64,000 bases of DNA, taken from contig JAWAJB010000001.1 in the NCBI GenBank assembly GCA_038888155.1, forward strand, positions 256,001-320,000. Direction: 5' to 3'. This DNA is from Desulfurococcaceae archaeon (lineage in GTDB: Archaea; Thermoproteota; Thermoprotei_A; Sulfolobales; Desulfurococcaceae). Shown piece after piece: positions 1-11,073 of the stretch (position 1 is the stretch's first letter; every line of letters starts with the position of its first letter). The translations under genes and the position numbers were made by a program. The notes below the pieces were generated by a model. That model was not told the DNA's origin, ran no database searches, and worked only from the letters and a program-made list of their open reading frames with translations.

Positions 1-386
1 ACAACTTTGAAATAGGTTTTGCTATATGCCACGACTTGAGGTTCCCAGAGCTCTTTAGAGTTTACGCCAACTTAGGGGTAAAGCTGGTAATTGTGCAGGC
101 TGCTTGGATAAAGGGGCCGCTAAAGGAGGAGATCCTAGATAAACTGGCTTCGTCTAGGTCGCACGAAAACGCGCTCTACCTCATAGTGGCAAACCAAGTC
201 GGTGAAATGTTCACTGGGAGAAGCGGAGTATTTAACCCGCTAGGATACCGCGAGCTAGATATGGGGAATGGGGAGAAGTACTCCGAGCACACTCTGTTTC
301 TCGAGGAAGTTGAGAGGGCGAGGTCAACTATGCCTATACTGAGACAGGCATTTGAGAAGTGGGAGGTAAAGATAAAGCAAGCATAG
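1..386 (+). CDS. carbon-nitrogen hydrolase/nitrilase family protein (5' truncated by window edge)
   Basis: Frame is open from position 3: NFEIGFAICHDLRFPE matches the nitrilase ICxDxRFPE catalytic Cys motif; RSHEN..ANQVG..G.S in C-terminus. Confidence 0.85.
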   Translation, partial: NFEIGFAICHDLRFPELFRVYANLGVKLVIVQAAWIKGPLKEEILDKLASSRSHENALYLIVANQVGEMFTGRSGVFNPLGYRELDMGNGEKYSEHTLFLEEVERARSTMPILRQAFEKWEVKIKQA

Positions 387-424
387 GTCGTTAAGTTAAA
401 AACTGCTAGGGTTGGGCTAGGTTC

Positions 425-1108
425 TCAGGCGCACGATTTAATCTTTGGTAGCAACTGCGCTAGCTCAGTAAGGTCCTTTACTGTTGTAGGCCAGGTGTAG
501 CCTAGGCCCCGGTCAACTAGAACAGTTGTAGCCCCTAGCTCGCTTGCTGGCTTTAAGTCATATTGAGGATAAGCGGAGACGTGTATAGCTTGGCTGGGAG
601 CTATAGAGAGCAGATCGTAGGCCTTTAAGAATGCATCCTTGAGGGGCTTGTACGACTTTACGTCTTCAGCTGTTATAACGTAGTCGAAGAGGGGCTTGAG
701 GCCGCTCAAGGTGATATCTATTAATTCTCTGTCTGTGTTTGAGAGTACGCATGTCTTTAGCCCCTGCTCCCTAAGCTTTTTAATGCCGTAAACCGTGTCT
801 GGGTACGGCGGGGACTTCGCGAACGTTAATATAAATGAATCCACTACATTCCTATCCGCTCTTACGCCGTAATCTGCAGCTAGTTCTAACAAGCACTTCT
901 CGAGTACCTGCCTGTAGGGCCTGTAAATTGAGATTTCCCTAATATCGCACTCAAAGTACTTGCTTAGCGCTCCAGGGGAAACGAAGAACTCAACAAAGGA
1001 CCCTATTGCGTAATTCCAGTTCACGAGAGTCCCGTAGAGGTCAAATATAACGAGGCTGCCTCTAGTCGCTTTGTTGAGAGGGGAGTTGCGCGGACTAGAC
1101 ATGAGCAC
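425..1108 (-). CDS. HAD-superfamily hydrolase (haloacid dehalogenase type II-like)
   Basis: FDLYGTL motif I, LSN motif II, YKP motif III. Confidence 0.85.
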   Translation of the reverse strand: MLMSSPRNSPLNKATRGSLVIFDLYGTLVNWNYAIGSFVEFFVSPGALSKYFECDIREISIYRPYRQVLEKCLLELAADYGVRADRNVVDSFILTFAKSPPYPDTVYGIKKLREQGLKTCVLSNTDRELIDITLSGLKPLFDYVITAEDVKSYKPLKDAFLKAYDLLSIAPSQAIHVSAYPQYDLKPASELGATTVLVDRGLGYTWPTTVKDLTELAQLLPKIKSCA

Positions 1109-1124
1109 ACCACGCCACTATATC

Positions 1125-2300
1125 TCAGTATTCCTGCTTAGCTCTAATTAACTTTACACACATTAAGTAGAGAGACTTCAGGGCTTCACTTAATAGGCAG
1201 ATGCCTTCTTCTCTAGGCCGATCTACTTCAAGGAAAATAGTTCCCTGCCCAAACCAAGCCCTCCTGCAAGCTGTGCCCAAGGATTTAGCTAGAGCGCGCA
1301 CTTCAGCTTGATCTGGGCCTTTAATCCCCTCTACCTCTCCTCTGGAAGCTACTTTCATTTTTACACAGGTCAGTCCGTGCGCGTGCAAATTAGCCATACA
1401 AGCGTATGGGTAAAACACCAGCCCCCGCTTGCGGGCATATCGAGCGATTTTCACCTTAATATCGCCTGTGTATACACTGTACTGCGCGCGAGGCCTCATT
1501 TTATCTAGTCTAATTGGGAGCCTTTTGCTGACCTCCCCTAATTCTAGGCCTATCTCCTTTAGGTTGTTGAATACATCCCTTGTAATCCTCAAGGAGCCTG
1601 CAACGACGCCTACAGCTCCGTGCTCTACTGCGAGATCAATTATTTCCTCGTATTCTCTCTCAGTAATTCCAGGGATTATAGGCCTTAGGAATAGGAAAGG
1701 CTGTAGGCCAGCCCCTCTGAGGTTTCTCAAGGTCTCGAGTCTCCTCTCTGGTGGGGGCGCATAGGGCTCAAGCTCCCTGTGCGCCTTAAGTGTAACAACC
1801 GTAACTAGCGGAGAGATTTTTCCCCCGCTCAACTCTGCTAGCTTCTCGGCCTCGCTACTGCTCAAGCTCGACTTCGTGGAGAACTGGACTGGGTTACCTA
1901 GGTACTTGTACAGCGCCTCGATGTACTCGAAAGACTTGCCCTTTGTAATTGGGTGAAAGGGCTCAGTTACGCTACCTATAGCGAGGTAAGTGCCGCGTTT
2001 ACCAGGAACAAAGCACCTATTTGAGAGCAGAGCGTAGACTAGCTGTAGGCCCGTTAGCAGGTAGGGCTTTAGAGCTGCACTAAAGCCCATGGTATATATA
2101 TAGCAGTACCTACACTGGTATGGACACCCAGTGCCCGAGTGCACTGTTATGCCGCATAGCCTGGGGTACCTCGTCGCGTGCGGGTCTCTTATAGCGTATT
2201 TGCTCTCCTGGTCGCTCAATAGGGCCTTAACTTTCTCCCTAAGCTCCTCTTTTTCCTTGAGCAGCCTGGCGACGTAATTAACTGGTCCCACTTCATTCAC
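1125..2300 (-). CDS. radical SAM protein (SplB/photolyase-like group)
   Basis: CPYQCRYC (CxxxCxxC), GSVTEPF, STK, LEPYAPPPERRL. Confidence 0.8.
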   Translation of the reverse strand: MNEVGPVNYVARLLKEKEELREKVKALLSDQESKYAIRDPHATRYPRLCGITVHSGTGCPYQCRYCYIYTMGFSAALKPYLLTGLQLVYALLSNRCFVPGKRGTYLAIGSVTEPFHPITKGKSFEYIEALYKYLGNPVQFSTKSSLSSSEAEKLAELSGGKISPLVTVVTLKAHRELEPYAPPPERRLETLRNLRGAGLQPFLFLRPIIPGITEREYEEIIDLAVEHGAVGVVAGSLRITRDVFNNLKEIGLELGEVSKRLPIRLDKMRPRAQYSVYTGDIKVKIARYARKRGLVFYPYACMANLHAHGLTCVKMKVASRGEVEGIKGPDQAEVRALAKSLGTACRRAWFGQGTIFLEVDRPREEGICLLSEALKSLYLMCVKLIRAKQEY

Positions 2301-2437
2301 GCTCTCGAGAGTAGGCTAAGAATGTTCTTTTTCCCCTTTACTCTCAGTGAAGGCATACTGCATAGAATCTATTAAGCTATTTACCCTGCTCATTTAAGGT
2401 TAAAAAACCGCATACACACTATTCTTAACCTGGACTT

Positions 2438-2522
2438 GCGGGGGTGCCCGAGCTTGGTCAAAGGGGTCGGGTTGAGGACCCGGTGGCGTAGGCCTGCGTG
2501 GGTTCGAATCCCACCCCCCGCA
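2438..2522 (+). tRNA. tRNA-Leu(GAG)
   Basis: GCGGGGG/CCCCCGC acceptor stem, TCGGG-TTGAGGA-CCCGG anticodon arm, long variable arm, GGTTCGAATCC T loop. Confidence 0.95.
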
Positions 2523-3204
2523 CTAGGTAAACTCTAGAGTTCCTATGGCTTATTGCCTGCAGAGAGTAGAGGGCGCGGAGAGCTCTGCTTCACAGATTAA
2601 GGAATACTAGGCTTTTGCCTAGATTTCAGCACATTGTTTAGCGGAAATTACATATGGTATAAATGCGAGTACCTGACGAATTGGTGGATCTAAGGGCGAA
2701 GTGCGGGGCGCCTTTAAAAATTTTTGGGCGAAAAGTACGGGAAATCGTGGGGCATAGGGAGGCGATATCTAGAGGAACTTTATGCCCTTTGCCAATTGCC
2801 GCCGTGGAATACCCTTTTTACTGGGGCATTTATTGCACCGAAGACTTAATTTGCCAGCCCTTATCTCGTCAAGCGCAGTTACAGATTTAGAGCCCTTAAT
2901 ACTAATGGTTGTGGGCCAAATTATCCTTTGCACGGCATAATCTAAAAATTTCTGCATCGATTGTTGAAGTCTCTCCCTATTTTACTTCTACTATAAGGCT
3001 GGCGAGAGCCTCGCTAGGCCAGCGAGCTAACATTTCAGCCAAGTGTTCTCCAACTTACCATAAACATGTATGGAGCTAGCGTGAATATCCTTTAAGTGCT
3101 ATTCAAAATATAGTTGAAAGATTTTTGAGAATTTTTATTGGGTTTCTGCACTACAAGAGTAAGTTGGATTACTTGGGTATAGGGTACTGTGTGGGGTAGT
3201 CCTC

Positions 3205-5276: not shown

Positions 5277-6154
5277 TGGGCATTCTAGTCAACTCAAAGA
5301 CCGCTGTAGTTGTACAGGGAGCCACTGGAAGGGAGGGCAGCTTTCACGCCAAGCTCATGCTAGAGTACGGGACAAGAGTTGTTGCAGGCACTTCGCCTGG
5401 TAAAGGAGGTACATATATTCACGGGATCCCTGTTTACAACACTGTATACGAGGCAAGCAGAGAGCAGGGGCCAATAGATGCATCAATTGTGTTTGTCCCA
5501 GCTAGGTTTGCCGCAGATGCAGTTTACGAGGCTGTAGACAGCGGAATTAGGGTCGTAGTCGTGATAACAGAGGGCATACCGCTACACGAAGAGATTAGAT
5601 TCGTAAACTACGCAAAGAAAAAGGGCGCTACCGTAGTTGGGCCTAATACTCCAGGCGTTATGACAGTGGGAGAGTGCAAGCTAGGCATAATGCCGTCTCG
5701 CGTATTCACTAGGGGGAGCGTTGGGCTAGTCTCTAGGAGCGGCACGCTCACTTATGAAATAGCTAGAGAGCTGGGCAAGGCAGGCTACGGCATATCAACA
5801 GTGCTCGGAATTGGAGGAGATCCCATTACAGGAGTGAACTTCACTGAGGCGTTTGAAATGTTCGCAAAAGACCCAGATACAGATGCTGTAGTAATTATAG
5901 GGGAAATAGGCGGAGATGCCGAGGAGAGGTTCGCTAGGTATTACGCAGGGTTAACGGCGAAGAAGCCGGCAGTAGCGTACATTGCAGGCCGTGCAGCTCC
6001 TCCAGGCAAGAGGATGGGGCACGCGGGCGCCATAATATCTATGGGCGTAGGGGACTACTACTCCAAGAAAGGGTCGCTAGAGGCTTCAGGTGTACCAGTA
6101 GCTACTACGCCTTCGCAAATTCCCTCAGCGCTTTCAGCGCTTCTAAAGAAGTAG
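5276..6154 (+). CDS. sucD: succinate--CoA ligase alpha subunit
   Basis: [27 protein letters not shown] phospho-His motif; coupled to sucC stop. Confidence 0.95.
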
Positions 6155-6212
6155 AAAAATTTTTTACTCCGCGTTGCTTTCAACTATCCTAGTGCGCTTT
6201 AGGTGTGACTGC

Positions 6213-6749
6213 ATGAGGAACTTAGAGAAAGTTGGTCCGGGAGAGAAAGCACCGGAAGAAGTTAATGTACTGATAGAGATACCTATGGGGAGCGGAGTTA
6301 AGTACGAGCTAGATAAAGAGAGCGGCATCCTAGTTGTAGATAGGATTTTGTACACATCAATGGTCTACCCATTTAACTACGGCTTCATACCTGGGACGCT
6401 AGAGGAGGACGGAGACCCTGTTGATGTCTTAGTTGTTTCATATGATCCACTGATACCCGGCTCTGTTATAAGGGCTAAGCCCATAGGCACTTTGGATACA
6501 GAGGACGAGAAGGGCCTAGACACGAAAGTTGTCGCTGTGCCTTCAGAGAAGATCGACCCAAGGTTTCAAAATATAAAGGACGTAGGAGATCTGCCCGAAT
6601 CTATAAGGCGGAGAATAGAGCACTTTTTCGCCCACTACAAAGAGCTAGAGAAGGGTAAGTGGGTCAAGGTAATTGGCTGGAACAATAGAGCTGTTGCCCT
6701 CGAGAAGATAAAGAGGGCCATTAAAAGACAGGGGGAGATCAGCGGGTAA
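6213..6749 (+). CDS. ppa: inorganic pyrophosphatase
   Basis: [28 protein letters not shown] motif; ATG at 6213 preceded by AGGTG. Confidence 0.95.
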
Positions 6750-6941
6750 GGCCCGCTAGCTAGCGAATCGGCCTAAACTGCAGGAGGACGGCTACAGCCC
6801 CTAAACAAGGGGACTGCAACCATTGAGGGGGGTATGGGAATTTTAGGAGTGACTAGCCCGCTTTATTAAACCCTGTTACCCAGAGGTATGAGCGTAGATA
6901 TGAAGGGCTCTACCTGCAGTGTTCAGCGCTGGGGACCGTTG

Positions 6942-7256
6942 CTATTTTCCGAACACCTTCTTTTTAAATTCTGCTGGTTGATGAATAAAGAGCTCTACTA
7001 GAGAATATATGTCTTCATCTATGCCTAAGGCCTGCGCTACTGGCTTAACGAAGATCTCCCTTGCAATAAAAGCAACAGTCTCTTTGTTTTGGTAAATCTC
7101 GCTGAGCGCCTGGACTATTAGCTCGGGATTAGAGAGCAGCGCGTCGAACACGCTTACGCCTCCCCTTAACATGCAGTGCAGGTTGAGCATCGCTAGTAGG
7201 CCTGGAGCTATTGACGAAGCTTTCGCTTTTATAGAGCTAATAATATTGCTCTCCAT
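6942..7256 (-). CDS. small helical hypothetical protein (resembles 23071..23283)
   Basis: ATG at 7256 just after the permease stop; PGLL..L.L...LL..P......L..IY pattern. Confidence 0.55.
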   Translation of the reverse strand: MESNIISSIKAKASSIAPGLLAMLNLHCMLRGGVSVFDALLSNPELIVQALSEIYQNKETVAFIAREIFVKPVAQALGIDEDIYSLVELFIHQPAEFKKKVFGK

Positions 7257-7276
7257 GTCTTGCCACACAGCGCTTG

Positions 7277-8023
7277 CTACCTCTTCTCGAGAACCATAAG
7301 GGCACCCTGGCGGGTCTTGTAAAGGGTAACGGCAGTAAGCAGTAGGGTCAGGGAGATGAGGTATGCAAGGGAGTAGCTGACGGGAACGCCCTCCTGAAAG
7401 CCAACACTCAACCTCAACAAACAAACAATGTGCGTAAATGGGTTAAAGAGCATGACAGTTCTCCAGGGCTGGTAAATGCCCTTTAACGTGTAGTAGAGCG
7501 GGGTTGCAATAGCCAACAAGATTATTAAAAGGGTGAGGAGGGGCTCTAACCTGTACCTGTTCCTAACAGTTAAGCCTAGGAGCACAGCGATGTTCGGGAA
7601 CAACAAGGCCGAAATGAGCAAGCTGAGGAAGACGTAGATCCAGTTCAGCCCTCCAGCTGCAACTAAGAGTAGCGCTACTCCTAGAGCGACTGGCGGTATG
7701 CTAAAGAGGAGCTGAGATACAATGTAGGATGCAAACAGCTCCCTCAAAGAGATAGGCAGAGATGCGTGTAGCTCTAGTACTTGCTCTTCAAACGTATTAG
7801 CAACAGTTACGGCAACGGGGTAAACTAGCGTCGAGAAGCACGCCATTACTACATAGCCCGTTAAGCCCACTAGGAAAGATTCAGCGCTGCCTCCAGAGGA
7901 GAGAACCACCACTGCCATATACGTAAGCGGCAACAGCACTGTTACTGTCACTAAGCTCGTCCAGTAAAGCCTGTACATCTTGAGATTGAACAAAATTGAC
8001 TTAATTAAGGTCCTAGGAGCCAT
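7277..8023 (-). CDS. ABC-2 type exporter permease
   Basis: About six TM segments, NPFTH motif, directly downstream of ABC ATPase. Confidence 0.8.
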   Translation of the reverse strand: MAPRTLIKSILFNLKMYRLYWTSLVTVTVLLPLTYMAVVVLSSGGSAESFLVGLTGYVVMACFSTLVYPVAVTVANTFEEQVLELHASLPISLRELFASYIVSQLLFSIPPVALGVALLLVAAGGLNWIYVFLSLLISALLFPNIAVLLGLTVRNRYRLEPLLTLLIILLAIATPLYYTLKGIYQPWRTVMLFNPFTHIVCLLRLSVGFQEGVPVSYSLAYLISLTLLLTAVTLYKTRQGALMVLEKR

Positions 8024-8026
8024 GTA

Positions 8027-8932
8027 TTACCCCCTGCTAGTTACCGCCTTGGTGAGGATTGTTTCAACAGATGGGTACTCTAAGTAAACCCTAATGTCAT
8101 CTCTGTACTCCCCATTAATTACTAATTGCTCTAGCTCCTGTAGCGCATCGACGAGCTTTTGATACTTTACAACTACGATGTTCTCGCCTACGTTCACATC
8201 CCCCCTTGTGAAGAGCTGCGCAAGTTTGCCGGCAAACCTACTGATGATCTTTACTTCTGCCCAAGTGTGCAAGCTATCAAGCGATGAAAGCACGTCAACC
8301 ACTCTACCGTACAGCATTAAGTACACTCTATCGCACAGCCTCCTCACTTCCTCTAGATCGTGGCTAACTAGCAGGAGCGTCTTTCCCTTACTCTTCTCAT
8401 ACGCGAGCACGTCCCATACTGCTCTTTTCTTTAACACGTCAATGTAGCTTGTCGGCTCGTCTAGTATCATTAGCTCGCTGTCCTTAACTAAGGCTTGGGC
8501 TAGCAGCAATAGCTTCCTCTGGCCCACTGAGAGCTGGTAGCCCAACCTGTCTCGGAAATCCCATAGCCCCAGCAGCTCGAGAACTTCCTGCACCCTTGTG
8601 TGCGGCGTGCCCGCTAAATCCGCTACATACCTGACTACTTCTATAACTCTGTGGGCTGGGAACACTAGGGGCAGTTGAGGGACATACGCAACGCTTCGCC
8701 TAATCGCCTCTTGCCTCTCAACTGGATTGAACCCGAGGACTGTTATTCTTCCACTAGTTGGCTTCAACAACCCCATTATCTGCCTCACAAGGGTTGTTTT
8801 ACCAGCGCCGTTAGGTCCCATAATGCAAGCTGTTTCACCGCTACATACCTCTAGAGATACGTCTGCGTTGGCCTTTACGCCGTTGGGGTAGACTTTAGTG
8901 ATCTTTTCAGCGACTATAACCCTATTGTACAT
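8027..8932 (-). CDS. ABC exporter ATP-binding protein
   Basis: GPNGAGKTT Walker A, LSVGQ signature, ILDEPT Walker B, SHD; start could also be 8944. Confidence 0.9.
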   Translation of the reverse strand: MYNRVIVAEKITKVYPNGVKANADVSLEVCSGETACIMGPNGAGKTTLVRQIMGLLKPTSGRITVLGFNPVERQEAIRRSVAYVPQLPLVFPAHRVIEVVRYVADLAGTPHTRVQEVLELLGLWDFRDRLGYQLSVGQRKLLLLAQALVKDSELMILDEPTSYIDVLKKRAVWDVLAYEKSKGKTLLLVSHDLEEVRRLCDRVYLMLYGRVVDVLSSLDSLHTWAEVKIISRFAGKLAQLFTRGDVNVGENIVVVKYQKLVDALQELEQLVINGEYRDDIRVYLEYPSVETILTKAVTSRG

Positions 8933-10241
8933 CTCTAACCACATCCCTGTACTTCGATATCGCGTAAGCTCGGACGAGCCTCTCGAGGTTGTGTTCACCG
9001 TATAAGGCTATAAGGCAGGTAGAGGCGCCCTTGGACTTCAAGTAAATGCAACCACCATAGCAGATTGGGGCGTATTTGCAGCTCTTAGTGCACTCGGGGT
9101 CATTTATTATTGGCGCCATTCTCTCAGGGGATATAGACGCTAGCCCATTGCCTAGAATTCTGCCCAGCGGCTTATCGTACATGTATGCTGGGCACATGTA
9201 TATATTCAACTTCTCGTCTACGGCGTAGCCGTTGCTGAACTTGCATATACACGGCCCCTTGATAAAGACCTTTGAGATCCTAAATCCCCTGCCTACAGCG
9301 TACTCTAGCGCTTCAACTATTCCCCTTGAGATATTCGAGTAGTACTCGCGGTAATTACTTGAGGCCTTAAACGGCCTATAAGCACTCGCTTGATCTGGGT
9401 GCACGGGAGAGAGGTCTATGCCCCAAACCTTGCTCTGGATCCCGAGGCTCGAGAGGAGATCTATGAGCTCAAAGGACCTCTCAACGTTGAACTCGTCGAC
9501 GTTTACTCGAATGCCTATGCGCTTGCCGTGTTTATCTATGAATTTAAGGGTGTTCTCTAGCACTATGTCAAATGTCCCCGTTCGATCTTTGAAGGGCCTC
9601 CTAGAGTTGTGTACATCACGCGGTCCATCAATAGTTACCTGAACGCTGTCAACGCTGTTGACAACTTCTTCAACTTCACCATCGAGAACTGTGGCATTAG
9701 TAATAAGGTCGACTTCTTTCCTGATGCCGTATTCCAAGACTAATTCGTCTATCTCTTTTGTGACTCTCTTGGCAATAGCAGGATTAAGTAGAGGCTCGCC
9801 GCCGTAAAGGGCTAAGGCCAGCATTTCGCTGCCGCTGTTGATTTTCCTCTCTAGGAACCCCCTCACTATTTCCCACTCCTTGGCGCTCATGTCATACCCC
9901 TCTACGTTGGGTCTGTAGGACTCGTAGCAGTACACGCACGCTAGGTTGCACCTATTGGTTAGCGACAGGAACATTGAGACTACTTTGCTTGAAAACCTAA
10001 CCTCTCTAGTTAGGCGAGAGTAGTGCTCCTCTTCGCTGAAGTCGTCGTCAATTAAAATTCGCTGGGACTTAAGCTGTGCAAAGACTTCAGAATCCGCTTC
10101 AAGCCTCTTCAACTCGCCAGAGCGAAGGGCTGAGCTTACATCTCTATCTACCAACAACAGAGTGCCGTAAAGGGAATTATAAACAAGATCGAAGTCTTGG
10201 GAGTACGGAAAAAACATGTTGAACTTTGATAGCTTGGTCAC
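8922..10241 (-). CDS. radical SAM/SPASM-domain peptide maturase
   Basis: CNLACVYC, YGGEPLL; C-terminal SPASM cysteines (GPC..YMCP..CTKSCKYAPICYGGC..C); ~85-aa N-terminal extension of RRE-like character. Confidence 0.9.
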   Translation of the reverse strand: MTKLSKFNMFFPYSQDFDLVYNSLYGTLLLVDRDVSSALRSGELKRLEADSEVFAQLKSQRILIDDDFSEEEHYSRLTREVRFSSKVVSMFLSLTNRCNLACVYCYESYRPNVEGYDMSAKEWEIVRGFLERKINSGSEMLALALYGGEPLLNPAIAKRVTKEIDELVLEYGIRKEVDLITNATVLDGEVEEVVNSVDSVQVTIDGPRDVHNSRRPFKDRTGTFDIVLENTLKFIDKHGKRIGIRVNVDEFNVERSFELIDLLSSLGIQSKVWGIDLSPVHPDQASAYRPFKASSNYREYYSNISRGIVEALEYAVGRGFRISKVFIKGPCICKFSNGYAVDEKLNIYMCPAYMYDKPLGRILGNGLASISPERMAPIINDPECTKSCKYAPICYGGCIYLKSKGASTCLIALYGEHNLERLVRAYAISKYRDVVRDVQ

Positions 10242-10263
10242 TCACGGCACCTGCTTTGTAATA

Positions 10264-10383
10264 TTAGTTTGGAAGTATATAGTAACCCGTGCATACGAGC
10301 CTGCAGAAAGGACCGCAGAAATTCGACTCCCTCGCGTTAGTCATTCCCCTTTCTAGAACTATGACTTTGGGCTTGGACTTCAT
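10264..10383 (-). CDS. putative RiPP precursor peptide, 39 aa MKSKPKVIVLERGMTNARESNFCGPFCRLVCTGYYILPN
   Basis: Hand-translated ATG(10383)-TAA(10264); same strand, 22 nt upstream of the SPASM gene; Cys23/27/31; BRE/TATA-like GAAAAACTTAAAAA upstream; below ORF-track cutoff. Confidence 0.8.
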   Translation of the reverse strand: MKSKPKVIVLERGMTNARESNFCGPFCRLVCTGYYILPN

Positions 10384-10515
10384 AATGTCGACCGATTAGA
10401 ATAATAGAAATTTTGAGATTTTTAAGTTTTTCGTATTTTTCCGAATAAGCAAATAATCAAAAATAAGCGCTTAGCTATTTTAGAACCTGCTGTATGATTA
10501 ATTATAGGGTAAACT

Positions 10516-11073
10516 ATGAGCAGCGATCCAATAACTGAGTGCAGCAAGAAAATATACATTGGGACATACGGAGCTGTCACTAAGGAGCTCGCAATATTAG
10601 AGAGCTCTACGAGGAAAGCTATTATTTACCAGCTGGCCGTTAATGGCCCTATGACAATCAAGGAGCTGTCAGATTCGCTGGGGCTCTCGCCATCCACTGT
10701 CTACGACCACATCAGGAAATTAAAGGAAGCTGGCTACATAGAGGAGGCGTCAGAGCACCCAAAGAAGTTCAAGGTCGAAGTTTACTACAGGCTCTCAATA
10801 CCGTATATGTTCTTCAGCGAGATAAGCTCGCTTGAGCCGCATTTATCGCCTCAACTTGAGAAGCTCAAAGGGGCAATCCGCAATACTCTCAGCAACATAG
10901 AGTCCACGCTAAAGGAGTCGCGCCTCAAGTGCGTTGAGTACTTACCCCAAAACTTAAAGGAGAGCTTCATTCACCGCCTATCTCTTGTTCTAATGACTCA
11001 GGCATTCGCCATGATACTGGGAGAGCTTACGGGCGAAACTTTCGTGTACGCGCTTATAGAGGATAGAAAATAA
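10516..11073 (+). CDS. ArsR/TrmB-like winged-HTH transcriptional regulator
   Basis: TRKAII..L...PMTIKELSDSLGLSPSTVYDHIRKLKEAGYI; divergent from the RiPP operon. Confidence 0.85.
   Translation: MSSDPITECSKKIYIGTYGAVTKELAILESSTRKAIIYQLAVNGPMTIKELSDSLGLSPSTVYDHIRKLKEAGYIEEASEHPKKFKVEVYYRLSIPYMFFSEISSLEPHLSPQLEKLKGAIRNTLSNIESTLKESRLKCVEYLPQNLKESFIHRLSLVLMTQAFAMILGELTGETFVYALIEDRK

What the first reader, a model, noticed from the sequence alone, without database searches (positions are those of the whole stretch)
6942..11073. Archaeal RiPP cluster with a hidden 39-aa CxxxCxxxC precursor
Seen: an ORF missed by the track (10383->10264, MKSKPKVIVLERGMTNARESNFCGPFCRLVCTGYYILPN) lies 22 nt upstream of a radical SAM/SPASM gene, followed by an ABC ATPase, an ABC-2 permease and a small helical protein, with a divergent wHTH regulator. 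Known: RRE-bearing SPASM enzymes install thioether crosslinks in sactipeptides and ranthipeptides (e.g. SCIFF) whose precursors have a basic/hydrophobic leader and regularly spaced Cys. Inference: an exported, thioether- or aromatic-crosslinked peptide (Cys23/27/31; F22, F26, Y34, Y35) from a hyperthermophilic crenarchaeon, a group where such products are poorly characterised.
Basis: partly seen in the sequence, partly recalled or inferred. Interest (0 to 1): 0.85.

Follow-up and report, generated by a model that had tools for sequence, protein, structure and literature searches.

The report
Archaeal radical-SAM peptide cassette with hidden precursor
A small unannotated gene in a hot-spring archaeon encodes a cysteine-bearing peptide that sits beside, and very probably is modified by, a radical-SAM enzyme; it is a genuine but fairly conventional new example of a known type of modified-peptide gene cluster.

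Summary
A 39-aa ORF (10383..10264, minus strand) ends 22 nt before a 439-aa radical SAM gene. An ABC ATPase, an ABC-2 permease and a 104-aa helical protein follow, and an ArsR-type wHTH gene lies divergent.

The ORF is a real gene. All 9 same-genus loci with an intact maturase carry it, and its profile was found in no other genome of the genus. L10, E11, N21, C27 and C31 are invariant. Synonymous-only codon changes are enriched in its frame. A BRE/TATA-like promoter motif and GGTG ribosome-binding sites are conserved.

The enzyme model aligns end to end with the thioether-forming maturase CteB, N-terminal peptide-recognition domain included (Z 27.9). A complex model lays the leader on that domain and the Cys core in the active site (ipSAE 0.75, best control 0.00).

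The enzyme falls below every NCBIfam subfamily cut-off, and the peptide matches no family. The chemistry (thioether is my guess), export and biological role are untested. The ABC pair is absent or frameshifted in 5 of 9 loci.

Verdict: a new member of the rSAM/SPASM Cys-peptide RiPP kind, confined to one Desulfurococcaceae genus.

The parts
10264..10383 (-). Precursor peptide gene, 39 aa. The leader is about residues 1-21 (K-[VI][VI][VI]-L-E-[RK] ... [ED][PS]N). The core is about residues 22-39 (F-C-x3-C-x3-C plus a short hydrophobic tail).
   Evidence: ORF and sequence. Orthologous ORFs in 9 of 9 intact loci. Invariant L10, E11, N21, C27, C31. Synonymous-only codon changes are 326 of 1022 changed codon pairs in frame, against 89 of 978 and 77 of 966 in the shifted frames. 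Complex model contacts 4-17 (RRE) and 23-32 (active site).
10419..10448 (-). Conserved promoter-proximal motif TTATTCGGAAA-n-ACGAAA-n-TTTAAA. I read it as a possible operator half plus a BRE/TATA-like box. It ends 35 nt before the peptide ATG.
   Evidence: Alignment of the 9 divergent intergenic regions. Coordinates. The reading as BRE/TATA rests on general knowledge of archaeal promoters, not on a tool.
10470..10483 (.). Second conserved intergenic motif (CTAAAATAGCT-like), nearer the wHTH start. Probably the TATA region of the wHTH promoter on the + strand.
   Evidence: The function is inferred.
10516..11073 (+). Divergent ArsR-type winged-helix regulator, 185 aa. The wHTH is at about residues 25-90; the C-terminal ~95 residues have no family match.
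   Evidence: PF01022 53.5 bits and PF13412 49.2 bits. Present in 9 of 9 loci.
8922..10241 (-). RRE-radical SAM-SPASM peptide maturase, 439 aa, GTG start preceded by AGGTG. The RRE is about residues 1-85 (nt 9987-10241). The CX3CX2C motif is C98/C102/C105. The SPASM Cys are 331, 350, 384, 388, 394, 398 and 409, plus a clade-specific C333.
   Evidence: AF2 model pLDDT 90.8. CteB Z 27.9, model 5..432 against chain 1..448. Foldseek E 3.8e-16.
8027..8998 (-). ABC transporter ATPase of the DrrA/ABC-2 type. The true start is probably internal (M19 at 8944 or M23 at 8932), because the long ORF overlaps the maturase 3' end and orthologs align from about residue 20-34.
   Evidence: PF00005 109.5 bits. 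TIGR01188 160.8 bits, below its cut-off of 312. Ortholog alignments.
7277..8023 (-). ABC-2 family permease, 248 aa.
   Evidence: PF12698 35.2 bits and PF01061 28.5 bits.
6942..7256 (-). Small all-helical protein, 104 aa, of a NitrOD5/PH0832-like family. Its role in the cassette is unknown; I guess it is an adaptor or regulatory partner.
   Evidence: Start fixed by ortholog alignment. PF11537 hits are weak in 6 of 8 orthologs (best E 3.5e-4; the window protein scores 14.1 bits against a cut-off of 27). AF2 pLDDT 93.3. PH0832 (2p9x) gives Z 9.2 with 93 residues aligned, next hit 5.5. Present in 8 of 9 loci.

Best explanation
This is a ribosomal-peptide (RiPP) biosynthetic cassette. The 39-aa gene product is a precursor. 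Its N-terminal leader (basic residues, then K-V-I-V-L-E-R) binds as an added strand to the N-terminal RiPP-recognition element of the adjacent radical SAM/SPASM enzyme. The C-terminal core (F-C-G-P-F-C-R-L-V-C...) is threaded into the SAM/[4Fe-4S] active site next to the two auxiliary clusters. There the enzyme abstracts hydrogen atoms and, most likely, joins the Cys sulfurs to carbon atoms of nearby residues, giving sactionine- or ranthionine-type thioether rings and a small, rigid, heat-stable peptide. The operon is driven by its own conserved BRE/TATA-like promoter and is probably controlled by the divergent ArsR-type regulator. Where the ABC-2 pump is present, it exports the product or protects the producer. 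The small NitrOD5-like helical protein is an accessory partner of unknown role. Shown here: the gene is real and conserved, the enzyme architecture, the cassette structure, and its patchy distribution. Inferred: leader-RRE binding (model only), the thioether chemistry (about 50%), export, and the biological role (a competition or signalling peptide).
For: Conservation. The maturase is found in 10 of 17 genomes of the genus, G000 included. It is intact in 9 and broken in G009. Every intact copy has the short ORF 10-67 nt upstream; in G003 the ORF as listed overlaps the upstream-extended maturase ORF. The peptide profile hits exactly those 9 genomes in the genus and has one copy in the own genome.

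Coding signal. 326 of 1022 changed codon pairs are synonymous-only in frame, against 89 of 978 and 77 of 966 in the shifted frames. Differences by codon position are 506, 429 and 793. Start codons are preceded by GGTG-type SD motifs, and a conserved promoter motif lies upstream.

Enzyme. It has CX3CX2C plus 7 SPASM Cys, invariant in 80 of 80 aligned homologs. The best NCBIfam alignments are all to Cys-peptide maturases: CefB 185 bits, geopeptide maturase 178, TIGR04463 151, PapB 104. The AF2 model has pLDDT 90.8. The best structural match is CteB at Z 27.9, with 384 residues aligned from residue 5. anSME, which I recall lacks an RRE, aligns only from residue 86.

Complex model. ipSAE runs were 0.73, 0.75 and 0.84 (median 0.75); the best of 3 controls was 0.00. 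The tool's mark was reached by 58 of 80 solved complexes and 2 of 110 mismatched pairs. Partner pLDDT was at least 52 and contact agreement at least 77%. Peptide residues 4-17 contact enzyme residues 16-35 and 50-61. Peptide residues 23-32 contact barrel and SPASM residues. Solved leader-RRE complexes such as CteB and SuiB exist, so this pass may partly reflect likeness to them.

Leader likeness. Distant bacterial relatives of the enzyme have upstream peptides with a similar K-G-I-V-V-L-K-K-G-type leader and Cys cores. One scores weakly as 'geopeptide' (16.3 bits, cut-off 30).

Accessory nature. The cassette sits between the pyrophosphatase and deoxyhypusine synthase genes in 7 of the 8 other genus loci with an intact maturase. 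For 5 of these the flanks also held SucD. G005 showed deoxyhypusine synthase only, on a short contig, and G004 showed neither flank gene. That site is empty or holds only a 107-aa ORF in 3 genomes without the cassette.

RNA hint. Contigs of one metatranscriptome library cover 7498-10349 in pieces. One piece (10164-10349) spans the peptide 3' part and the maturase start.
Against: No modification has been observed, so the chemistry is inferred only from the nearest families.

The enzyme is below the curated cut-off of every NCBIfam maturase family. Pfam reports only Radical_SAM and Fer4_12 at E <= 0.01, not the SPASM or PqqD models.

The first Cys is absent in 1 of 9 peptides, and one peptide (G006) has a diverged core.

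The tail after the last Cys is only 2-9 residues. By my recollection this is too short for a classical sactipeptide hairpin.

The ABC pair is intact in only 4 of 9 loci, frameshifted in 2 and absent in 3, so dedicated export is not essential. No leader peptidase is in the cassette.

The RNA evidence consists of assembled contigs from one study. It cannot exclude DNA carry-over, and two sister runs showed nothing.
Confidence: 0.75

Rival explanations
1. The precursor-maturase pair is the same, but the chemistry differs: not a thioether but another rSAM/SPASM reaction. Candidates are a C-C or C-O crosslink, epimerisation, or a modification centred on the invariant Asn21 or on backbone atoms. The Cys residues would then act as cluster-binding or structural residues.
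For: The enzyme belongs to no characterised subfamily. rSAM/SPASM enzymes are known to make thioether, ether and C-C bonds (passages of review PMC10114670). N21 is as invariant as C27 and C31. A clade-specific extra Cys (C333: 18 of 18 close homologs, 0 of 62 others) could fully ligate auxiliary cluster I. By my recollection of CteB, where an open iron site binds the substrate Cys, that would argue against that mechanism.
Against: All of the best-scoring families act on Cys-rich peptides. The only invariant core residues are two Cys. Aromatic positions are not conserved. The closest solved structure is a thioether-forming enzyme.
Confidence: 0.25
2. The modified peptide is not a secreted antimicrobial. 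It is an intracellular or signalling molecule, such as a redox cofactor precursor like mycofactocin or PQQ, or an autoinducer read out through the wHTH and the helical partner.
For: The ABC pair is dispensable: it is absent in 3 and frameshifted in 2 of 9 loci, while peptide, enzyme and regulator are kept in 9 of 9 and the helical protein in 8 of 9. Relatives of the helical protein lie next to KaiC-like ATPase genes in 16 of 22 other loci (KaiC PF06745 confirmed for 3 of 3 tested). The weak Pfam hit is to a response-regulator output domain. SCIFF-type ranthipeptides have been linked to quorum sensing in clostridia (reference list of PMC13635244; that paper itself was not read).
Against: No partner oxidoreductase or receptor gene is in the cassette. 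Patchy presence within one genus (9 of 17 genomes intact), with a clean empty site in others, is typical of accessory competition loci. The frameshifts may be assembly errors in MAGs.
Confidence: 0.25
3. The short ORF is not a substrate. It would be a conserved 5' leader or regulatory upstream ORF of the radical SAM operon, and the enzyme would act on some other protein.
For: The ORF was not called in this genome. Short ORFs are abundant by chance (59 ORFs of 25 aa or more in 7 kb). A recent paper shows an archaeal SPASM enzyme acting on a larger Cys-rich protein (abstract of PMC13692751).
Against: The frame shows protein-level purifying selection and invariant Cys. An SD and start codon are present in all 9. 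Gene callers elsewhere have called it (9 clusters, all 'hypothetical protein' or unnamed). The complex model is confident and specific against its controls. No other Cys-rich gene is in the cassette.
Confidence: 0.04

Closest known systems
CteB / SCIFF system (ranthipeptide; PDB 5wgg, 5why)
   Same: It has the same three-domain architecture, N-terminal RRE + radical SAM barrel + SPASM with two auxiliary clusters. It is the best structural match (Z 27.9, 384-389 residues aligned; Foldseek E 3.8e-16) and the best PDB sequence hit (E 3.5e-10). A short Cys-bearing precursor is encoded directly upstream.
   Different: Identity is only 17-18% in the structural alignment. The SCIFF maturase model TIGR03974 scores 69.8 bits against a cut-off of 425. 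The peptide has 3 Cys in 39 residues rather than the six in about forty-five that give SCIFF its name (the name is recalled). The host is archaeal.
Geopeptide system (TIGR04280 maturase / TIGR04229 peptide) and its uncharacterised bacterial relatives
   Same: It is the second-best NCBIfam match, over nearly the full length (177.7 bits, residues 3-403). Upstream peptides of distant bacterial relatives share the basic - aliphatic run - [KE][KR]G leader followed by a Cys core.
   Different: The score is below the cut-off of 400. The window peptide has no hit to TIGR04229. The core here is C-x3-C-x3-C rather than the adjacent CC seen in those bacterial peptides. I found no paper on geopeptides in the library, so their chemistry is unknown to me.
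CefB 'Cys-every-fifth' maturase (NF038107), TIGR04463, and Clo7bot maturase
   Same: CefB is the best NCBIfam score (185.2 bits, residues 3-399). All are RRE-rSAM-SPASM enzymes paired with small Cys-rich peptides.
   Different: The score is far below the cut-off (600). Cys recur every fourth residue and only three times, and the peptide matches none of these peptide families.
PapB / freyrasin-type ranthipeptide maturase (NF047865)
   Same: It is a radical SAM/SPASM thioether-forming enzyme, with a partial alignment over residues 87-400 (104 bits).
   Different: The score is below the cut-off (340). The alignment excludes the N-terminal domain. The core has no Asp or Glu acceptor after the Cys (the Cys-x3-Asp rule is recalled).
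Thuricin-CD-type sactipeptides
   Same: By my recollection, not from any call, these carry the same C-x3-C-x3-C spacing.
   Different: Those peptides have a long C-terminal half that supplies the acceptor residues of a hairpin. Here only 2-9 residues follow the last Cys. The RumMC, AlbA and other sactipeptide maturase models score 77 bits or less.
CrpC/CrpA of Methanococcus voltae (PMC13692751)
   Same: It is an archaeal SPASM radical SAM enzyme with a predicted RRE that installs thioether (ranthionine) crosslinks on a neighbouring Cys-rich gene product (abstract and section headings).
   Different: Its substrate is a larger Cys-rich protein, not a 39-aa peptide. It is euryarchaeal and methanogenic. 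The paper does not mention Crenarchaeota, Thermoprotei or Desulfurococcaceae (0 occurrences). No sequence comparison was made here.

Membership tests
Radical SAM/SPASM RiPP maturase with RRE (architecture class) | CX3CX2C radical SAM cluster motif in a Radical_SAM domain | tested here: met
   C98-x3-C102-x2-C105 is invariant in 80 of 80 aligned homologs. PF04055 scores 58 bits against a cut-off of 29.5.
Radical SAM/SPASM RiPP maturase with RRE (architecture class) | C-terminal SPASM domain with 7 conserved Cys for two auxiliary [4Fe-4S] clusters | tested here: met
   C331, C350, C384, C388, C394, C398 and C409 are invariant in 80 of 80. The model aligns to the SPASM enzymes CteB and anSME through residue 432-434. 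Caveats: the Pfam SPASM model was not reported at E <= 0.01, and cluster binding itself cannot be tested here.
Radical SAM/SPASM RiPP maturase with RRE (architecture class) | N-terminal RiPP recognition element (strands followed by three helices) that binds the leader | tested here: met
   The model has strands 2-4, 8-12, 17-22 and 27-32, then helices 33-41, 44-48 and 51-59, at pLDDT 89-97. CteB and TigE align from residue 1-5, anSME only from 86. The leader is placed against strand 25-32 and helices 50-61 in the complex model. RRE-Finder/HHpred was not available, and no PqqD Pfam hit was found.
Radical SAM/SPASM RiPP maturase with RRE (architecture class) | Co-encoded short precursor with leader and core | tested here: met
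   Found in 9 of 9 intact loci.
Ranthipeptide / sactipeptide (product class) | Cys S-to-carbon thioether crosslinks in the mature peptide | not testable with these tools
   This needs mass spectrometry or NMR of the modified peptide.
SCIFF system (TIGR03974 maturase) | Maturase scores above the curated cut-off; precursor with six Cys in about 45 residues | tested here: not met
   69.8 bits against a cut-off of 425. The peptide has 3 Cys in 39 residues.
Geopeptide system (TIGR04280 / TIGR04229) | Maturase and peptide both above their curated cut-offs | tested here: not met
   177.7 bits against 400. The peptide has no hit at E <= 10.
CefB/CefA Cys-every-fifth system (NF038107) | Maturase above cut-off; Cys at every fifth residue of the precursor | tested here: not met
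   185.2 bits against 600. The Cys spacing is every fourth residue, three times.
PapB ranthipeptide maturase (NF047865) | Maturase above cut-off; acidic acceptor residues spaced after each Cys (recalled rule) | tested here: not met
   104 bits against 340. There is no D or E in the core after N21 of the window peptide.
NitrOD5 / DUF3227-like (PF11537) for the 104-aa protein | Score above Pfam gathering threshold | tested here: inconclusive
   The window protein scores 14.1 bits against a cut-off of 27. 6 of 8 orthologs hit weakly, best E 3.5e-4. The fold match to PH0832 (2p9x) is Z 9.2 with 93 of 98 residues aligned, and the profile hit to it is E 0.1. Whether PH0832 itself belongs to PF11537 was not tested.
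ArsR/SmtB-type wHTH regulator | HTH_5 domain above threshold | tested here: met
   PF01022 scores 53.5 bits against a cut-off of 22. The NCBIfam metalloregulator model scores 39.1 against 55, below cut-off, so it is a generic wHTH and not shown to be a metal sensor.

The most novel reading that the evidence does not exclude
The cassette is a peptide-signalling circuit of a hyperthermophilic crenarchaeon. The crosslinked, heat-stable peptide would be an autoinducer-like signal. Its production is controlled by the divergent wHTH, and it would be read out through the NitrOD5-like helical protein, whose relatives elsewhere are partners of KaiC-type signalling ATPases. The crosslink might also be of a new type, involving the invariant Asn21 and made by a SPASM domain with a clade-specific eighth Cys. 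This would be the first ribosomal peptide signal described in Thermoprotei.
Probability: 0.12. Interest if true: 0.8.

Novelty: new member of a known kind. Interest (0 to 1): 0.5.

Why it matters
Genome mining has predicted many rSAM-type RiPP clusters in archaea, but very few products have been identified (passages of PMC12144867). Archaeal ranthipeptides are described as only recently reported (passage of PMC13635244).

Here the substrate gene is pinned down for a whole clade of Desulfurococcaceae maturases. The leader motif, the invariant core residues and the promoter are defined, so the enzyme-substrate pair can be synthesised and tested directly. A thermostable RRE-rSAM-SPASM enzyme with a very small three-Cys substrate would be a convenient model for the open question of how these enzymes choose between thioether, ether and C-C products (question quoted from review PMC10114670). 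The patchy distribution and the decaying ABC genes also give a natural series for asking what the peptide is for.

It is not a new kind of system. The architecture is canonical, and standard RiPP miners would probably flag the enzyme.

Tried and rejected
1. I asked whether the C-terminal half of the wHTH regulator is homologous to the small helical protein, which would suggest an anti-regulator pair. hhalign gave probability 0.4% and E 0.17. Rejected.
2. The bacterial sigma-70 promoter and intrinsic-terminator scan found 5 promoter-like sites against 4.7 expected, and 1 terminator against 3.9 expected. It is uninformative and not suited to archaea.
3. Base composition is flat at GC 0.42-0.51 across 3-15 kb. 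The only dip is at the divergent intergenic region, so there is no sign of recent foreign origin.
4. The search for related loci with the maturase alignment returned only distant relatives (32% identity or less), mostly bacterial with a few archaeal, and not the genus orthologs. It was still useful for the leader comparison.
5. The Atlas look-up of the helical protein gave only archaeal 'hypothetical protein' clusters, score 0.90 or less.
6. The PDB profile search with the helical protein put designed helical repeats on top (E 8e-5). I regard these as spurious low-complexity likeness.
7. RNA runs X10 and X11 laid nothing on the stretch. X6 left 6900-7497 and 10350-10589 uncovered. These are contigs of one study and show neither absence nor transcript ends.
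8. Weak peptide-profile hits were not examined and are probably chance: G102 and G110 (E 3.8e-4 and 3.7e-3, inside 138-aa frames) and G197 (E 0.006).
9. Literature searches found nothing relevant. 'geopeptide', 'Cys-every-fifth', TIGR04280 and TIGR04463 gave 0 occurrences; only unrelated 'cefb' words matched. OhkG/FlmE with 'radical SAM' matched 0 papers. Desulfurococcaceae with RiPP matched 4 papers, none judged relevant from the search listing.
10. The CteB structure paper is not held, so statements on its open iron site are recalled.
Supplementary Data 1 of PMC12144867 (its list of archaeal BGCs) might already list this cluster, and I could not see it.

Full report
**Observation**

Its stop lies 22 nt upstream of the GTG start (10241) of a 439-aa gene, and that GTG is preceded by AGGTG. 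The genes around it are as follows.
- The 439-aa protein hits Pfam Radical_SAM and Fer4_12.
- Three genes follow on the same strand: a DrrA-like ABC ATPase (8998..8027), an ABC-2 permease (8023..7277) and a small helical protein.
- The long ORF 7424..6942 overlaps the permease. Ortholog alignment puts the real start of the helical protein at 7256, giving 104 aa.
- An ArsR-type wHTH gene (10516..11073) is divergent.
- The flanks are housekeeping genes: succinyl-CoA ligase alpha-like and inorganic pyrophosphatase on one side, deoxyhypusine synthase on the other.

A 39-codon ORF by itself is not evidence, since one search lists 59 ORFs of 25 aa or more in these 7 kb.

**Is the ORF a gene?**

I searched the maturase in 61 related genomes.
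- It is present in 10 of 17 genomes of the genus, the own genome included. Nine copies are intact at 45-58% identity; G009 holds a remnant with 4 stops.
- It was found in 0 of 20 genomes of other genera of the family.
- It was found in 2 of 24 genomes of other families of the order, at 32-34% identity.

Every one of the 9 intact copies has a short ORF of 32-42 aa just upstream. The aligned peptides share K-[VI][VI][VI]-L-E-[RK], six or seven variable residues, [ED]-[PS]-N-F, then C-x3-C-x3-C and a short hydrophobic tail. L10, E11, N21, C27 and C31 are invariant. Cys23 is replaced in one peptide (G004), and the G006 peptide has a diverged core.

Several signals show that the frame is translated.
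- Synonymous-only codon changes make up 326 of 1022 changed codon pairs in the peptide frame, against 89 of 978 and 77 of 966 in the two shifted frames. Third-position differences dominate, at 793 against 506 and 429. The sequences are kin, so this is a pattern and not a statistical test.
- All nine have a start codon a few residues before the basic N-terminus. Most have a GGTG/AGGTG motif 3-10 nt upstream.
- The nine divergent intergenic regions share a block TTATTCGGAAA-n-ACGAAA-n-TTTAAA. In the window it ends 35 nt before the ATG (10448..10419). From general knowledge of archaeal promoters I read it as a BRE/TATA box with an adjoining candidate operator.
- A second conserved block lies nearer the wHTH start.

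A profile of the peptides finds one copy in the own genome. Among 351 genomes of the class it finds exactly the nine genus genomes, plus one relative in another family (G189, E 1.8e-9) and three weak hits that I did not examine. In the 5.8-billion protein collection the profile finds 9 clusters. All are unnamed or 'hypothetical protein', and one is labelled Desulfurococcaceae archaeon. The window's own peptide was not among them, which fits its not having been called.

**The enzyme**

NCBIfam aligns it over nearly its full length to radical SAM/SPASM maturases of Cys-rich peptides, but always far below the curated cut-offs.

| Family | Score (bits) | Cut-off (bits) |
|---|---|---|
| CefB | 185 | 600 |
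| Geopeptide maturase | 178 | 400 |
| TIGR04463 | 151 | 525 |
| Clo7bot | 111 | 600 |
| PapB | 104 | 340 |
| SCIFF maturase | 70 | 425 |

In the large protein collection only 18 clusters are 47% or more identical. The named ones are 'Desulfurococcaceae archaeon', and the next hit drops to 30%.

In an 80-sequence alignment, C98/C102/C105 and seven C-terminal Cys (331, 350, 384, 388, 394, 398, 409) are invariant. C333 is present in all 18 close homologs and in none of the other 62.

The AlphaFold model (pLDDT 90.8, pTM 0.90) has an N-terminal unit of four short strands and three helices at residues 2-59, then the barrel and a C-terminal SPASM region. Structural matches were as follows.
- Foldseek ranks the SCIFF maturase CteB first (E 3.8e-16).
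- VIA-align gives CteB Z 27.9 (rmsd 4.1, 384 aligned, model 5..432 against chain 1..448).
- TigE gives Z 24.2, aligning from residue 1.
- anSME and ChlB align only from residue 82-87.

So the extra N-terminal ~85 residues match the recognition domain of RRE-bearing maturases. The Pfam SPASM and PqqD models were not reported at E <= 0.01. The domain calls therefore rest on Cys conservation and structure.

**Do they fit together?**

I ran a complex prediction with the enzyme alignment, the peptide alignment, three 4Fe-4S clusters and SAM.
- The three ipSAE runs gave 0.73, 0.75 and 0.84 (median 0.75). The best of 3 controls was 0.00.
- The tool's mark was reached by 58 of 80 solved complexes and 2 of 110 mismatched pairs.
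- Partner pLDDT was at least 52, and contact agreement at least 77%.
- Peptide residues 4-17 lie on enzyme residues 16-35 and 50-61, the last strand and helices of the N-terminal domain.
- Peptide residues 23-32, which hold the three Cys, contact barrel residues (89, 91, 142-146, 178-180, 201, 245, 278, 281) and SPASM residues (323-333, 350-352, 398-401).

This is the canonical leader-on-RRE, core-in-barrel arrangement. Solved complexes of this kind exist (CteB, SuiB, ChlB), so the pass may partly be memory of them. It supports binding but does not show it.

**Cassette structure and distribution**

In 7 of the 8 other genus loci with an intact maturase the cassette sits between the pyrophosphatase and deoxyhypusine synthase genes, or beside the one of them that the contig holds. 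For 5 of these the flanks also held SucD. G005 showed deoxyhypusine synthase only, on an 8.7-kb contig. G004 showed neither flank gene. In genomes without the cassette, that site is either empty (G008) or holds only a 107-aa ORF (G007, G010). Retention across the nine loci differs by gene.

| Component | State across the 9 loci |
|---|---|
| Peptide | 9 of 9 |
| Maturase | 9 of 9 |
| wHTH regulator | 9 of 9 |
| Helical protein | 8 of 9 |
| ABC pair | intact in 4, one frameshift in 2 (possibly assembly errors), absent in 3 |

In G015 and G002 the helical protein's ORF overlaps the maturase stop by 4 nt.

Two loci hold remnants. G009 carries a pseudogenised maturase elsewhere in its genome. G189, in another family, keeps the wHTH, a related peptide and a broken ABC ATPase, but no maturase either there or elsewhere in the genome with this query.

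GC content is flat across the region. The cassette therefore looks like an old, accessory, repeatedly lost element of this lineage.

**The helical protein**

It models confidently (pLDDT 93.3, seven helices). Its only clear structural neighbour is the uncharacterised PH0832 of Pyrococcus horikoshii (2p9x: Z 9.2, rmsd 2.8, 93 aligned, next hit 5.5; profile E 0.1). Six of 8 orthologs hit Pfam NitrOD5 weakly, below threshold.

The family is widespread and multi-copy in the class: 110 of 301 genomes, with 4 copies in the own genome. Outside the cassette, 16 of the 22 best loci have a KaiC-like ATPase gene adjacent. KaiC (PF06745) was confirmed for the 3 I scanned. This points to an adaptor or regulatory role rather than catalysis, but nothing shows what it does here. 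It is not homologous to the regulator's C-terminal half.

**Relatives of the leader**

Two archaeal genomes of another family have a 32-34% identical maturase preceded by 25-28-aa peptides. These have a [KR]-[IV]-[LV]-x-I-E-R leader and a different, conserved single-Cys core.

Several distant bacterial relatives (Nitrospirota, Deltaproteobacteria, Auribacterota MAGs) have upstream peptides with K-G-I-V-V-L-[KD]-[KE]-G-type leaders and Cys cores. One scores weakly as geopeptide, at 16.3 bits against a cut-off of 30.

The leader type thus seems older than the core. That fits recognition by a conserved RRE.

**Expression**

The DNA is held by hot-spring metagenome runs of two studies and by a sediment metatranscriptome run of a third. 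Contigs of that RNA library (X6) cover 7498-10349 in six pieces and 10590-10864. One piece, 10164-10349, spans the peptide 3' part and the maturase start. Two sister runs gave nothing. Contigs cannot show strand, ends or level, and DNA carry-over is possible, so this is only a hint of transcription.

**Mechanism**

I commit to a precursor-maturase pair that makes intramolecular crosslinks on the Cys core, most likely thioethers. My reasons are these.
- Every nearest family acts on Cys-rich peptides.
- The closest solved enzyme makes thioethers.
- The only invariant core residues are two Cys.

Which carbons accept the sulfurs is open. The tail after the last Cys has only 2-9 residues, and the core has no acidic residue. 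Neither the classical sactipeptide hairpin nor the Cys-x3-Asp ranthipeptide rule fits (both recalled). The invariant Asn21, two residues before Cys23, is a candidate acceptor or a cleavage site. The clade-specific C333 might complete the ligation of auxiliary cluster I, which would differ from CteB as I recall it.

No leader peptidase is encoded in the cassette. Export by the ABC-2 pump is plausible where it exists, but it is clearly dispensable.

**Comparison, novelty and literature**

The architecture is that of known rSAM/SPASM RiPP systems, but the locus is a member of none of the curated subfamilies I tested (see the membership table).

Archaeal genome mining with antiSMASH has reported ranthipeptide- and sactipeptide-type clusters across archaeal superphyla without products (passages of PMC12144867). 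A methanogen SPASM enzyme acting on a Cys-rich protein was characterised in 2026 (abstract and outline of PMC13692751). Archaeal ranthipeptides are called recently reported (passage of PMC13635244).

I found nothing on this peptide family or on Desulfurococcaceae RiPPs.

I rate it a new member of a known kind. It has moderate interest because the substrate is now defined for a thermophilic archaeal clade and is directly testable.

Noticed in passing
L011/L023 (G048:C12) and L012/L024 (G058:C1), just upstream of the maturase homolog: This looks like a second, different archaeal peptide family. 25-28-aa ORFs end 12 nt before a 32-34% identical RRE-rSAM-SPASM gene. They have a [KR]-[IV]-[LV]-x-I-E-R leader and a conserved single-Cys core G-R-C-x-Y-S-P-S-W-G. 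The maturases again score below the geopeptide and CefB cut-offs (221 and 227 bits).
   Followed up: partly
L157 (G189:C4:27485-30568), about 700-3084: This is a remnant cassette in another family of the order. It holds a homologous wHTH, a divergent 51-aa frame with a related peptide (leader I-A-V-L-E-K, core with four Cys), then a frameshifted ABC ATPase and a fragmented permease. There is no maturase there or elsewhere in that genome with this query.
   Followed up: partly
L123-L144, L145 (G000:C3), L147 (G041:C10): Homologs of the 104-aa helical protein form a multi-copy family in the class (110 of 301 genomes). They lie next to KaiC-like ATPase genes in 16 of 22 loci examined, sometimes in tandem KaiC-helical pairs. 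Some are the C-terminal half of proteins of about 240 aa.
   Followed up: partly
L025 (G009:C1:62000-75000), about 5900-7500: This locus holds a pseudogenised maturase (3 TGA and 1 TAA inside the match, with a frameshift) and a truncated ABC ATPase. It lies outside the usual pyrophosphatase/deoxyhypusine-synthase site. No peptide was found with the motif scan of this locus or with the peptide profile in that genome.
   Followed up: partly
window 8922-10241 (-), residue C333: An extra Cys two residues after the first SPASM Cys is conserved in 18 of 18 close homologs and in 0 of 62 more distant ones. It could be a fourth ligand of auxiliary cluster I.
   Followed up: no
whole assembly G000: The assembly holding the window has 2.42 Mb in 134 contigs with 6.4% estimated contamination. 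The 16 genus relatives have 0.9-1.5 Mb. It may be a mixed or duplicated bin. The cassette's flanks are syntenic with the genus, so the window itself looks native.
   Followed up: no
L035, L042, L066, L084 (bacterial MAG contigs), 100-350 nt upstream of the maturase homolog: Short ORFs with K-[GR]-I-[VS]-[VI]-L-[KD]-[KE]-G leaders and CC-containing cores precede distant bacterial relatives of the enzyme. Only one scores, weakly, as NCBIfam geopeptide.
   Followed up: partly
L112 (G010) 8004-8327 and L113 (G007) 6417-6740: In two genomes without the cassette, a 107-aa ORF with a wHTH-like N-terminus occupies the same site between the pyrophosphatase and deoxyhypusine synthase genes. Its relation to the cassette's regulator was not tested.
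   Followed up: no
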